Below are positions 37,026 through 43,868 of a DNA stretch of 64,000 nt, one piece after another. Positions within the stretch are counted from its first letter, which is position 1. Each line of letters starts with the position of its first letter. The notes beneath the pieces are model-generated. The model saw nothing but the letters and a program-made list of their open reading frames with translations. It did no database searches and was not told the origin of the DNA. This stretch comes from Escherichia coli (GTDB lineage: Bacteria > Pseudomonadota > Gammaproteobacteria > Enterobacterales > Enterobacteriaceae), in assembly GCF_965641715.1 (NCBI RefSeq), contig NZ_OZ282453.1; one strand, 5' to 3'. The position numbers and the translations under genes were made by a program.

Positions 37026-37520
37026 TCAGAACAGCCCTTTAACTGAACTGGCCGCGCTGTTAAGAGATGATGTCACCTTATCTTTGAAGCCGGACAGCAT
37101 ATCGCTGAACGATGAGGATTGCAGGCGCTCCCGCAAATCCTCATCACAGCGTTCAAGGGTCAGTGAAAATTCTATCTTTTTCGCCTTACCGTAGCGATCA
37201 AACTCGGAACGGGTCGTATTCGTTCCGGTCAGGACATACATGCCGTAAATCTGCCCGACACCATCAATCAGAGGCCAGGGGCGTCCTGTATATGCCTGCG
37301 TGGTCAGCAACGAAAGCGACACTTCGCCACCTGTAATTTCAGGATAAAGCACACCAGAAAGAACGATGCGATCATCGCCTGCCCCGATATACTGCCAGCT
37401 TGCTGAACGGTTAACGCGTTCATTTTTCACATGCCGCCAGCTTTTGTTTTGCTGTAACTGCTGATGCGGCAACGTGCGCAGCTCAAAAACAAACATGCCG
37501 TAGATCATCATCATGGCCAT
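37026..37520 (-). CDS. Tail protein U
   Basis: 164 aa downstream of the tape measure gene on the minus strand, as in the P2 F-E-T-U order. Confidence 0.75.
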   Translation of the reverse strand: MAMMMIYGMFVFELRTLPHQQLQQNKSWRHVKNERVNRSASWQYIGAGDDRIVLSGVLYPEITGGEVSLSLLTTQAYTGRPWPLIDGVGQIYGMYVLTGTNTTRSEFDRYGKAKKIEFSLTLERCDEDLRERLQSSSFSDMLSGFKDKVTSSLNSAASSVKGLF

Positions 37521-37526
37521 GACTCC

Positions 37527-42601: not shown

Positions 42602-42626
42602 AGCTTCAGCCCCTTGTATCCGTTAA

Positions 42627-43868
42627 ATGATTCGGCAACAATCATCACCCACCACGCGCGTAATCTCACCCCTGCGCCGTTCTCCCGCCACGGCGACAAC
42701 AAAAAGCAGTAACCCCCTCCGCACGCACATGCGACCATGCCGCACAGGGAGGGAGCAGATGACCGACACCACCATGCAATTGCTCAGTCAGGGCACAGAC
42801 CCCGTGAAAATGCCGGATTTTGATATTCTCGCGGAGGGTAAAACGCTGTCAGGCGTGGCAGAGCGCCTGATGAGCCTGTCAGTGACCGACAACCGGGGAT
42901 TTGAAGCGGACCAGCTCACCATCACGCTGGATGATGCGGATGGTCAGTTGCAGCTACCGCCACGGGGCGCGCGCCTGACGGTTCTCATTGGCTGGAAAGG
43001 AGAACCGCTGACAGAAAAAGGCACTTACATTGTTGATGAAATCGCTCACGAAGGACCGCCGGACAGGCTGACTGTTTCAGCCAGAAGCGCAGATTTTCGG
43101 GATGAATTTAACGTTAAACGTGAGGTGTCCTGGCATGATGTGACCGTTGAGCGTGTGGTATCCGCCATCGCTCATCGGTACGGTCTGAAACCGCAAATCA
43201 GCGAAATGCTGATGGATATCGAAATCGACCACGCCGACCAGACCGAAGAAAGCGACATGTCCTTTCTTACGCGCATGGCGGAAATGCTGGGCGCAATCAC
43301 CACGGTAAAAAGCGGTAATCTGTTATTCATTATGCCAGGCGGTGGCGTGAACGCACAGGGCCAGCCGTTGCCCTCGTTCGCCATCACGCGCAGCAGTGGC
43401 GATCGCCATCAGTTCCGCATTGCTGACCGCGAAGCGTATACGGGGGTACGCGCTTACTGGCTTGATCTTAATTACGGGAAAAAGAAAAAAGTCAGCGTGA
43501 AACGCCGCAAACCGCCAAAACCCAAAAAGGAGAAAAGCAGCAGCCGTGAAGGTGATTATATGGAAGGTGCGGAAGGCAATGTGTTTGTGTTACGCAAGAC
43601 TTATCAGAACGAGCAGGCAGCAAGACGCGCAGCGGCGGCAAAGTGGCAGCAACTACAACGCGGAGCCGCATCATTCTCCATCACGCTGACACGTGGACGA
43701 GCAGAACTCTACCCCGAAATGCATGGCACGGTAACAGGATTTAAAAGCGAGATTGATAATCAGGACTGGATTATTGCGAAAGCCGAGCACACCATTGATA
43801 ACAGTGGCTTTACCACGCAGCTTGAGCTTGAAGCAAAAATCCCGGAATGGATAGCAGAAACAGAGTGA
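42627..43868 (+). CDS. Tail/late control protein D
   Basis: gpD-family features; the true start is probably an internal Met near 42759; divergent from the FI gene. Confidence 0.8.
   Translation: MIRQQSSPTTRVISPLRRSPATATTKSSNPLRTHMRPCRTGREQMTDTTMQLLSQGTDPVKMPDFDILAEGKTLSGVAERLMSLSVTDNRGFEADQLTITLDDADGQLQLPPRGARLTVLIGWKGEPLTEKGTYIVDEIAHEGPPDRLTVSARSADFRDEFNVKREVSWHDVTVERVVSAIAHRYGLKPQISEMLMDIEIDHADQTEESDMSFLTRMAEMLGAITTVKSGNLLFIMPGGGVNAQGQPLPSFAITRSSGDRHQFRIADREAYTGVRAYWLDLNYGKKKKVSVKRRKPPKPKKEKSSSREGDYMEGAEGNVFVLRKTYQNEQAARRAAAAKWQQLQRGAASFSITLTRGRAELYPEMHGTVTGFKSEIDNQDWIIAKAEHTIDNSGFTTQLELEAKIPEWIAETE

What the first reader, a model, noticed from the sequence alone, without database searches (positions are those of the whole stretch)
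37026..43868. Tail sheath-tube-chaperone-tape-measure-U block is on the opposite strand to D and ogr
In canonical P2 the genes FI-FII-E-T-U-D form one co-directional operon. Here FI through U are on the minus strand and start divergently from D, only about 25 bp from the FI start. Relative to P2 this is a ~5.6 kb inversion, or a different ancestral arrangement, with one end next to the invertase gene. It implies a separate late promoter for D and possibly a past invertase-mediated rearrangement.
Basis: inference. Interest (0 to 1): 0.4.

Follow-up and report, generated by a model that had tools for sequence, protein, structure and literature searches.

The report
Lineage-typical inverted tail operon, P88-like prophage
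The tail sheath-to-U gene block really is flipped relative to phage P2, but this is the normal, anciently fixed gene order of a whole branch of P2-like phages (P88 and relatives). It has nothing to do with the neighbouring invertase, and gene D has most likely gained its own late promoter by sharing the sheath operon's activator site.

Summary
U, T, E/E', FII and FI lie on the minus strand; D and ogr lie on the plus strand and diverge from FI. In P2 all of these genes are co-directional. The true FI/D gap is about 157 bp, not 25 bp, because D starts at ATG 42759.

The arrangement is not unusual for this lineage.
- The region is collinear with phage P88 in one piece at 95% identity, and with Citrobacter phiSM.
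- The FI/D junction is intact in 1357 of 1378 E. coli genomes that carry it.
- All 79 IMG/VR relatives that hold FI, out of 80 fetched with D at 62% identity or more, share the order.
- Salmonella SEN5 and Klebsiella Kp4871-3 share it too.
- Eight other genera, including an outgroup outside the Peduoviridae, are co-directional.
- D and FI trees separate inverted from co-directional phages in 200 of 200 bootstraps. This points to a single old inversion.

The invertase link is rejected.
- Only two gix-like sites exist, and they flank the 3.1 kb Mu/P1-like tail-fibre segment.
- Most inverted relatives lack the invertase.
- Phage Cartapus has an invertase and keeps the canonical order.

Every FI/D spacer holds one T[G/C]T-N12-ACA dyad. 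Matching -10-like hexamers lie 44-49 bp away on both sides, as at P2's divergent P/O late promoters. This implies one shared Ogr site driving both FI and D; that is inferred, not shown. Interest is low.

The parts
33258..33283 (.). Left gix-like crossover site of the invertible tail-fibre segment. It is context only and is not part of the FI-U block.
   Evidence: 24 of 26 matches to Mu gixL, with the gixL sequence recalled from memory. It lies inside the 65-nt inverted repeat 33254-33318 / 36288-36352.
36323..36348 (.). Right gix-like crossover site of the invertible tail-fibre segment.
   Evidence: 24 of 26 matches to Mu gixL. These are the only two sites in the window above 18 of 26.
36385..36990 (+). 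Gin/Cin-type serine DNA invertase gene. It belongs to a Mu/P1/P7-like cassette inserted in the cargo slot between the tail-fibre genes and U.
   Evidence: Pfam Resolvase plus HTH_7. Window 33259-36783 is 91-95.5% identical in nucleotides to Mu, D108, P1 and P7.
36989..37014 (.). Hairpin with T-runs on both strands, lying between the converging invertase and U genes. It is a probable bidirectional intrinsic terminator and so the end of the FI-U transcript.
   Evidence: The terminator scan reports a 10-bp stem on both strands; sequence shown.
37026..37520 (-). Tail gene U, the last gene of the inverted block.
   Evidence: Pfam Phage_P2_GpU, E = 1.5e-38. 46% identical to P2 U.
37527..40370 (-). 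Tape-measure gene T. The coordinates give the longest ORF; the start annotated in P88 corresponds to about 40334.
   Evidence: Pfam PhageMin_Tail; P88 annotation.
40321..40850 (-). Tail chaperone genes E (40485-40850) and E' (overlapping ORF 40321-40557).
   Evidence: ORF list. P88 annotates two small tail proteins here. tblastn finds 32% identity to P2 E. The frameshift site was not established.
40905..41417 (-). Tail tube gene FII.
   Evidence: Pfam Phage_tube, E = 7.5e-47.
41417..42601 (-). Tail sheath gene FI, the first gene of the inverted block.
   Evidence: Three Pfam sheath domains.
42602..42758 (.). FI/D divergent spacer of 157 bp, predicted to be a bidirectional late promoter region.
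   Evidence: The junction is conserved in 1357 of 1378 E. coli genomes that have a match.
42679..42702 (-). Ogr-type activator box TTGTTGT-N12-AGAAC. Its core, TCT-N12-ACA, is at 42681-42698 on the plus strand, with the dyad centre at 42689.5. The centre lies 88.5 bp from the FI ATG and 69.5 bp from the D ATG.
   Evidence: The exact pattern occurs only twice in the 64 kb window; the other copy is in the P/O divergent spacer at 23935-23958. One such dyad is present at the same place in all 65 unique relatives' spacers. The half-sites are invariant while the N12 varies.
42641..42646 (-). Predicted -10-like hexamer GATGAT of the FI promoter, 44-49 nt from the dyad centre.
   Evidence: Spacers aligned on the box show GATGAT, GAATAT or GATTAT conserved at this offset across genera. 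P2 pF has its -10 at the same offset, with the mapped transcription start at +57.5. Function is inferred.
42733..42738 (+). Predicted -10-like hexamer GACCAT of a D promoter, 44-49 nt from the dyad centre. It implies a transcription start near 42745.
   Evidence: A conserved GCGCGCGCATGAAACCAT-type element sits at this offset toward D in other genera. Function is inferred.
42759..43868 (+). Tail/baseplate hub gene D. The longest ORF would start at 42627; the true start is most likely 42759.
   Evidence: Pfam Phage_GPD. 49% identical to P2 gpD.
43911..44171 (+). ogr-like late activator gene, 42 bp downstream of D.
   Evidence: Pfam Ogr_Delta, E = 5e-14. The protein carries CX2CX24CX4C. The order D+ ogr+ is kept in all relatives examined.

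Best explanation
The window carries a P88-type (genus Xuanwuvirus) P2-like prophage, probably spanning about 9.84-45.82 kb. Its tail genes FI-FII-E/E'-T-U form a transcription unit that points away from D-ogr.

This order comes from one old inversion of the segment running from the F-operon promoter through U. The inversion became fixed in the common ancestor of a Peduoviridae branch comprising Xuanwuvirus, Reginaelenavirus, Senquatrovirus and their relatives. It is static today, and it is unrelated to the adjacent Gin-type invertase. That invertase only flips the 3.1 kb tail-fibre segment between its two gix-like sites (33258-33283 and 36323-36348).

The inversion cut D off from the F operon. 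D, and by read-through ogr, is now most likely transcribed from a late promoter that shares the single dyad-symmetric Ogr-type activator site of the FI promoter. That site is T[G/C]T-N12-ACA, centred at 42689.5. RNA polymerase would start about 55 bp away on either side, the same geometry as P2's divergent P_P/P_O pair. The FI-U transcript ends at a bidirectional hairpin terminator that it shares with the converging invertase gene.

Shown: gene identities, gene order, its distribution among relatives, its phylogenetic unity, the absence of recombination sites at the block ends, and conservation of the motif. Inferred: promoter activity, transcription start sites and Ogr binding.
For: Gene identities and strands:
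- Pfam and the ORF list give the identities and strands.
- P2 is co-directional.

Distribution of the arrangement:
- One-piece collinearity with P88, 97% coverage at 95.1% identity, and with phiSM; their annotated strands match.
- The FI/D junction is intact in 1357 of 1378 E. coli genomes with a match. The exceptions sampled are cut at position 727 of the query, and the O157:H7 locus examined (L004) carries an IS30 there.
- The inv/U junction is intact in 620 genomes. In most of the rest, homology ends 6 bp past the U stop codon. The two examined in detail carry a serine O-acetyltransferase gene in that slot, and their block is still inverted.
- SEN5 and Klebsiella Kp4871-3 are inverted.
- All 79 IMG/VR loci that hold FI, out of 80 fetched with D at 62% identity or more, read U- T- E- FII- FI- D+ ogr+ wherever those genes are covered.

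Polarity and number of events:
- P2, Cartapus, Kapieceevirus, Arsenicumvirus, Citexvirus, Tigrvirus, Baylorvirus and Vhmlvirus are co-directional.
- Neighbour-joining trees of D (outside the block) and FI (inside it) both recover the split between inverted and co-directional phages in 200 of 200 bootstraps.

No role for the invertase:
- There are only two gix-like sites, and both flank the tail-fibre segment.
- No inverted repeats lie at the block ends.
- An invertase sits next to U in 7 of 56 informative IMG/VR loci.

Promoter:
- The exact TTGTTGT-N12-AGAAC pattern occurs only in the P/O and FI/D spacers of the window.
- One dyad, 81.5-88.5 bp from the FI ATG, is present in 65 of 65 unique spacers. 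The background rate of the pattern is 0.00054 per position.
- The half-sites are invariant and the N12 is variable across 34 distinct boxes.
- Conserved -10-like elements lie 44-49 nt from the centre on both sides.
- P2's record annotates one activator site for both pO and pP, with transcription starts 55.5 bp to either side.
- The TGT-N12-ACA consensus, and one palindromic site shared by P_P' and P_O' in phage Smp131, are described in PMC3931495.

Function:
- P88 and phiSM form plaques, so the arrangement works (PMC5285337; PMC6456863).
Against: - There are no transcript or binding data for any member of this clade. The -10 hexamers are weak matches to consensus, which is expected of activator-dependent promoters but also makes them easy to over-read.
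- In the window and in E. coli relatives, one half-site is TCT rather than TGT.
- The predicted D leader is only about 14 nt.
- The relatives are phylogenetically related, so 65 of 65 overstates the number of independent observations. The variable N12 against fixed half-sites argues for selection all the same.
- The mechanism of the original inversion is unknown, and its footprints are gone.
- The trees are simple neighbour-joining trees on 27 taxa.
- The papers I could read do not discuss this arrangement, so my statement that it is merely 'typical' rests on database records.
Confidence: 0.75

Rival explanations
1. The FI-U inversion was made in the past by the adjacent Gin-type invertase acting on secondary gix-like sites.
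For: The invertase gene abuts the U end of the block. Invertase cassettes recur at this same slot in several sub-lineages: L052, L053 and L088.
Against: - There is no gix-like site above chance level at either end of the block. The best nearby match is 17 of 26, at 42801 inside D, and equal scores occur elsewhere in the window.
- No inverted repeats flank the block.
- The cassette is 91-95% identical in nucleotides to Mu, P1 and P7, which indicates a recent exchange. The inversion predates genera whose D proteins are only 62-70% identical.
- Most members of the inverted clade lack the invertase.
- Cartapus carries an invertase in the same slot and keeps the canonical order.
- The adjacency follows simply from the cassette travelling with the tail-fibre module.
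Confidence: 0.05
2. The block is an actively switching invertible segment, or the orientation here is an assembly artefact.
For: Only the presence of a functional-looking invertase nearby.
Against: - A single orientation is seen in 1357 of 1378 E. coli genomes, in 79 IMG/VR contigs and in independent phage genomes.
- The sampled exceptions are cut at the same point, where the O157:H7 locus examined carries an IS30.
- There are no crossover sites at the block ends.
- In the opposite orientation FI would be separated from its promoter box, and D would sit directly after U.
Confidence: 0.01
3. The arrangement is real and lineage-typical, but D does not share the FI activator site. D would be expressed from a separate promoter, either a sigma-70 promoter independent of Ogr or a second, degenerate activator site.
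For: The D-side -10-like element is weak, and the simple promoter scan reported no sigma-70 promoter in the spacer. One half-site is non-canonical (TCT) in E. coli members. No experimental data exist.
Against: - Only one dyad exists in each of the 65 spacers.
- The spacer is just long enough for two promoters placed 55 bp to either side. The predicted starts are about 111 bp apart, the same as the P2 pP-pO distance of 3016 to 3127.
- D-side elements are conserved at a fixed offset from the dyad across genera, while the rest of the spacer diverges.
- D is a structural tail protein and needs late timing.
Confidence: 0.17
4. The polarity is reversed: the divergent order is ancestral and the co-directional P2 order is derived.
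For: Rooting was not rigorous. An unrooted split alone cannot give polarity.
Against: Eight co-directional genera hosted by gamma- and beta-proteobacteria are co-directional, including Vhmlvirus, which lies outside the Peduoviridae. Rooted on Vhmlvirus, the inverted phages form one derived clade nested among co-directional lineages.
Confidence: 0.03

Closest known systems
Escherichia phage P88 (Xuanwuvirus P88, NC_026014) and Citrobacter phage phiSM
   Same: The region is collinear with P88 in one piece at 95% nucleotide identity across 31000-44623. Gene order and strands are identical: H, G, G', H', invertase, U-T-E-FII-FI on the minus strand, and D on the plus strand. Both are plaque-forming temperate phages (PMC5285337, PMC6456863).
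   Different: Only allelic differences, mainly in the tail-fibre C-termini and in cargo beyond 44.6 kb. The P88 RefSeq record does not annotate ogr and carries a probably spurious 43-aa ORF inside the FI/D promoter spacer.
Bacteriophage P2 F operon (FI-FII-E-E'-T-U-D, promoter P_F)
   Same: The gene set is homologous, at 32-48% amino-acid identity. The order within the block is the same. An activator box lies about 83-88 bp upstream of the FI ATG. D-ogr adjacency is kept, and the cargo slot sits between G and the tail block.
   Different: FI..U is inverted, so D is no longer in the operon. U ends at its own terminator instead of overlapping the D start. There appears to be no separate P_V promoter, because the S and V ORFs overlap; I noted this but did not pursue it.
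P2 P_P/P_O divergent late promoter pair
   Same: One dyad-type activator site lies midway between two divergently transcribed late units. In P2 the transcription starts are 55.5 bp to either side. The window's own P/O spacer carries the same extended box, TTGTTGT-N12-AGAAC.
   Different: Here the pair drives FI and D rather than P and O. Activity and transcription starts have not been measured.
Mu G segment/Gin, P1 and P7 C segment/Cin invertible tail-fibre cassettes
   Same: Window 33259-36783 is 91-95.5% identical to these cassettes. It has two inverted 26-bp crossover sites, alternative fibre C-termini and assembly genes, and a serine invertase.
   Different: The cassette sits in a P2-like backbone. 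It does not include, and is not responsible for, the FI-U block.

Membership tests
P2-like (Peduoviridae) contractile tail module | Homologues of sheath FI, tube FII, chaperone E/E', tape measure T, U, D and an Ogr/Delta zinc-finger activator are present together. | tested here: met
   Pfam hits for GpU, PhageMin_Tail, Phage_tube, three sheath domains, Phage_GPD and Ogr_Delta. tblastn to P2 gives 32-48% identity. E itself has no Pfam hit but matches P2 E at 32%.
Genus Xuanwuvirus (P88-like phages) | High nucleotide identity and collinearity with the type phage P88. | tested here: met
   95.1% identity over 97% of the 14 kb query in one piece. I did not compare the early and head regions, which are needed for a formal whole-genome genus threshold.
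P2 F operon architecture | FI through D are co-directional in one transcription unit, with U and D overlapping. | tested here: not met
   FI..U is on the minus strand and D on the plus strand, separated by a 157-bp divergent spacer.
P2-type Ogr-dependent late promoter | A TGT-N12-ACA dyad upstream of a late gene. | tested here: met
   TCT-N12-ACA in the window and TGT-N12-ACA in other genera. There is one per spacer, at a fixed distance from the FI ATG, in 65 of 65 unique spacers. The consensus is taken from PMC3931495.
P2-type Ogr-dependent late promoter | The dyad is centred near -55 from a mapped transcription start, and transcription depends on the activator. | not testable with these tools
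   No transcription-start or expression data are available. Only the offsets to the ATG codons and to -10-like hexamers match P2.
P2-type Ogr-dependent late promoter | A cognate Ogr/Delta C4 zinc-finger activator is encoded by the phage. | tested here: met
   PF04606, E = 5e-14. The cysteine spacing is CX2CX24CX4C, against the CX2CX22CX4C quoted for P2 (PMC3931495).
Din-family (Gin/Cin/Hin/Pin) invertible DNA segment, applied to the FI-U block | A pair of inverted crossover sites of about 26 bp at the segment ends. | tested here: not met
   The only sites with 19 or more of 26 matches to gix or hix are at 33258 and 36323. Nothing above chance lies near 37020 or 42600-42760, and no flanking inverted repeats exist.
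Din-family (Gin/Cin/Hin/Pin) invertible DNA segment, applied to the FI-U block | Both orientations are found among isolates. | tested here: not met
   A single orientation appears in 1357 of 1378 E. coli genomes and in all 79 IMG/VR loci that hold FI.
Din-family invertible DNA segment, applied to the tail-fibre segment 33258-36348 | A serine invertase, two inverted crossover sites and alternative fibre gene ends. | tested here: met
   I did not test whether it actually switches.

The most novel reading that the evidence does not exclude
The inversion was tolerated, and then fixed in a whole branch of the Peduoviridae, because the Ogr-type activator site is dyad-symmetric. When the F-operon promoter was flipped next to D, its single box could at once, or after minor tuning of a -10 element, activate transcription in both directions. 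That would have created a new late unit, D(-ogr), and a second P_P/P_O-like bidirectional late promoter. If so, this is a natural example of promoter bidirectionality buffering an operon-breaking rearrangement. It would also separate the dosage of the D hub protein, and late ogr read-through, from sheath and tube expression.
Probability: 0.55. Interest if true: 0.3.

Novelty: already known. Interest (0 to 1): 0.15.

Why it matters
Mostly it matters as a correction. The feature is the standard gene order of P88-like prophages, which occur in about a quarter of complete E. coli genomes (1378 of 5426 carry the FI/D junction). It should not be flagged as a rearrangement, a misassembly or an invertase product.

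There are three minor positive points:
- The FI/D divergence is a clean, single-origin synteny marker for a Peduoviridae sub-branch (Xuanwuvirus, Reginaelenavirus, Senquatrovirus).
- The conserved single dyad between FI and D is a testable prediction of a second bidirectional Ogr-dependent late promoter.
- Database annotations place a D start or a small 'hypothetical protein' inside this promoter spacer, and these are probably wrong.

Tried and rejected
- An exact TGT-N12-ACA search of the window found nothing in the FI/D or P/O spacers and no enrichment overall (12 matches against 14.9 expected). The local box has one TCT half-site, and I found it by comparing the two divergent spacers.
- The generic sigma-70 scan found no promoter in the spacer. 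That is expected for activator-dependent promoters and is uninformative.
- I tested whether the FI/D spacer is a duplicate of the P/O spacer. Local alignment shows only 12-13-nt motifs at about chance level (8 and 21 of 500 shuffles reach the score), so I rejected this.
- I searched for inverted repeats or gix/hix-like sites at the block ends and found none.
- I looked for the opposite orientation in 5426 E. coli genomes and 80 IMG/VR loci and found none.
- The papers I could read on P88, phiSM, SEN4/5 and Serratia PP4 do not mention the inversion. The P2 review and the Julien & Calendar paper are not held, so the -55 geometry rests on the P2 RefSeq annotation and on PMC3931495.
- The first tree script timed out. 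I reran it with a faster distance calculation.
- I did not establish the E/E' frameshift site.
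Full report
**Observation.** The ORF list and Pfam confirm the layout.
- Plus strand: tail fibre H (31994-34288) and G (34289-34819).
- Minus strand: an alternative assembly gene and fibre C-terminus (34848-36175).
- Plus strand: a serine invertase (36385-36990).
- Minus strand: U (37026-37520), T (37527-40370), E/E' (40321-40850), FII (40905-41417) and FI (41417-42601).
- Plus strand: D (ending at 43868) and an Ogr/Delta zinc-finger gene (43911-44171).

One detail needs correcting. The 25-bp gap relies on the longest ORF, which starts at 42627. The real D start is most likely ATG 42759, behind the Shine-Dalgarno sequence GGGAGGGAG.
- P88's annotation starts at the equivalent codon.
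- Homology to P2 gpD begins at residue 63 of the long ORF, against P2 residue 15.
- Relatives L023 and L025 have a 1-nt deletion just before that ATG, which breaks the long frame. Four of 39 close relatives have a stop codon in the extension.

The divergent spacer is thus 42602-42758, or 157 bp.

**Is it unusual?** No.
- The 14-kb region 31000-45000 aligns in a single piece with Escherichia phage P88 (97% coverage, 95.1% identity). It also aligns with Citrobacter phage phiSM, Xuanwuvirus P884B11 and others.
- The annotated strands in P88 and phiSM are the same as here. P88 and phiSM are plaque-forming temperate phages (PMC5285337; PMC6456863).
- In 5426 complete E. coli genomes, the FI/D junction (42300-43100) is found in 1378. 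It is intact in 1357 of them. The sampled remainder stop at position 727 of the query, where the O157:H7 locus examined (L004) carries an IS30.
- The best match is porcine ETEC4090, at 99.8%.

Misassembly and strain-specific rearrangement are excluded.

**How far does the arrangement extend?**
- A tblastn search with D, followed by inspection of neighbourhoods, shows the same U- T- E- FII- FI- D+ ogr+ order in Salmonella phage SEN5 (Senquatrovirus) and Klebsiella phage Kp4871-3 (Reginaelenavirus).
- An IMG/VR scan returned 80 loci with D at 62% identity or more. All 79 that contain FI have FI divergent from D.
- The order is co-directional in P2 (Peduovirus), Cartapus (Elveevirus), Klebsiella ST11-OXA48phi15.3 (Kapieceevirus), Shewanella M16-3 (Arsenicumvirus), Pseudomonas Dobby (Citexvirus), Burkholderia PhiBP82.2 (Tigrvirus), Mannheimia phiMhaA1 (Baylorvirus) and Vibrio MAR, which is a Vhmlvirus and lies outside the family.
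- Neighbour-joining trees of D (outside the block) and FI (inside it) for 19 inverted and 8 co-directional phages both recover the split between the two groups in 200 of 200 bootstraps. Rooted on Vhmlvirus, the inverted phages form one nested clade.

The simplest reading is one inversion in the ancestor of this branch.

**The invertase.**
- The only gix/hix-like sites in the window are at 33258-33283 and 36323-36348. Each matches Mu gixL at 24 of 26 positions, with the gixL sequence recalled from memory. Both lie inside a 65-nt inverted repeat.
- These sites bound a 3.1-kb segment that, together with part of the invertase gene, is 91-95.5% identical in nucleotides to the G and C segments of Mu, D108, P1 and P7. 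It is a recently exchanged cassette in a P2-like backbone.
- Nothing above chance resembles a crossover site at 37020 or in 42600-42760, and no inverted repeats flank FI-U.
- Invertase presence and block orientation are uncoupled. In E. coli, only 620 genomes keep the inv/U junction. About 1300 others carry U and T at 96-98% identity, but homology ends 6 bp past the U stop codon. The two examined in detail carry a serine O-acetyltransferase gene in that slot, and their block is still inverted.
- SEN5 has the inversion and no invertase. Only 7 of 56 informative IMG/VR loci have an invertase next to U. Cartapus has a Gin-like invertase in the same slot with the canonical FI..D order.

The adjacency is a by-product of the cassette travelling with the tail-fibre genes into the cargo slot, which is the slot that P2 fills with Z/fun. 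An invertase-mediated origin has no support.

**How D is probably expressed.**
- Comparison of the window's two divergent spacers revealed the same extended box, TTGTTGT-N12-AGAAC. It occurs exactly only at 23935-23958 (between P and O) and at 42679-42702 (between FI and D) in the 64 kb.
- Its core is a one-base variant (TCT-N12-ACA) of the P2 late-promoter consensus TGT-N12-ACA (PMC3931495).
- In the other genera of the clade, the FI/D spacer has diverged but holds a perfect TGT-N12-ACA dyad.
- Across 65 unique spacers there is exactly one such dyad, centred 81.5-88.5 bp from the FI ATG. The background rate of the pattern is 0.00054 per position.
- Among 34 distinct boxes, the outer triplets are invariant and the N12 varies freely.
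- With the spacers aligned on the dyad, conserved -10-like elements sit 44-49 nt from the centre on both sides. Toward FI they read GATGAT, GAATAT or GATTAT (window 42646-42641). Toward D a GC-rich run precedes GAAACCAT or GACCAT (window 42733-42738).
- P2's record annotates one activator site for both pP and pO, with transcription starts 55.5 bp to either side. It places the pF box 82.5 bp from the FI ATG, with the start at +57.5.
- The window's geometry is 88.5 bp to FI and 69.5 bp to D, with predicted starts about 111 bp apart. That equals the P2 pP-pO distance.

I therefore infer that the F-operon promoter moved with FI, and that its dyad now serves both FI and D. This makes a second bidirectional late promoter. 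The FI-U transcript would end at the hairpin 36989-37014, which has T-runs on both strands and also ends the invertase gene. D is followed after 42 bp by ogr in every relative, so late read-through into ogr, as annotated for P2, is plausible. None of this has been tested experimentally.

**What did not work.**
- The exact consensus search and the generic promoter scan were uninformative.
- The FI/D spacer is not a copy of the P/O spacer.
- The literature I could read does not mention the inversion.
- Key P2 promoter papers are not held.

**Verdict.** It describes the ordinary, anciently fixed gene order of P88-like and related phages, which is already present in many public records. The invertase and misassembly ideas are rejected. 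The requirement for a separate D promoter is supported by a strongly conserved P2-type dyad, and a shared bidirectional late promoter is the most likely mechanism. Interest is low. The only mildly new element is the predicted single-site FI/D bidirectional promoter, together with the use of FI/D divergence as a clade marker.

Noticed in passing
window 33258-36348 (plus invertase 36385-36990): This is a complete Mu G / P1-P7 C-type invertible tail-fibre cassette with two gix-like sites, sitting in a P2-like backbone. It is 91-95.5% identical in nucleotides to Mu, D108, P1 and P7. It is a clear mosaic module shared between unrelated phage families.
   Followed up: partly
window 14118-14315: Rfam finds isrK (14118-14192) and a C4 antisense RNA (14228-14315) in the prophage early region. 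C4 is the P1/P7-type immunity antisense RNA, which is unexpected company for a P2-like phage.
   Followed up: no
window 17946-19221: The prophage encodes a ParM actin-like segregation protein (17946-18905) and a StbB/ParR-like plasmid stability protein (within 18775-19221), just after the gpA replication gene. This is a plasmid-type partition system in an integrating P2-like phage. A protein with a ClpX-type zinc finger follows at 19285-19620.
   Followed up: partly
window 9839-9858 and 45803-45822: A 20-bp direct repeat, ACAAAAAACGCGCCCGAAGG, brackets the prophage and is a probable attL/attR core. It gives a 36-kb element inserted beside the Phe leader (Rfam, 9660-9785), with the integrase at 9952-10974. 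A DNA methylase (44895-45701) lies at the right end, beyond the homology with P88. An rrn operon follows at 52-57 kb.
   Followed up: partly
window 42581-42758; L001 12588-12719: RefSeq and PGAP annotate a small 'hypothetical protein' inside the FI/D promoter spacer (P88 gp50, 43 aa). ORF finders extend D to 42627. Both are probably annotation artefacts that overlie the activator box.
   Followed up: partly
window 23994-24027: Scaffold gene O probably starts at the second ATG, 24027 (MANEKK..., aligning with P2 MAKK...). This puts the P/O dyad 73.5 bp from the P start and 81.5 bp from the O start. From the first ATG the box would be only 48.5 bp away.
   Followed up: partly
window 28548-29015 / 28999-29643: The S-like and V-like ORFs overlap, with no intergenic gap and no dyad box upstream of V. 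This lineage may therefore lack a separate P_V promoter and run O through G as one long late unit. If so, there would be just two bidirectional late promoter regions.
   Followed up: no
L004 8278-8850 and 15010-16146; L005 8272-8817: In many E. coli relatives a serine O-acetyltransferase gene replaces the invertase cassette between G and U. In the O157:H7 remnant, IS30 truncates D and an IS3 element has removed the head genes.
   Followed up: partly
window 43911-44171: The Ogr homologue has cysteine spacing CX2CX24CX4C, against the CX2CX22CX4C quoted for P2. The 42-bp D-ogr gap is too short for P2's intergenic ogr promoter. A sigma-70-like match lies inside the 3' end of D (43731-43760).
   Followed up: no
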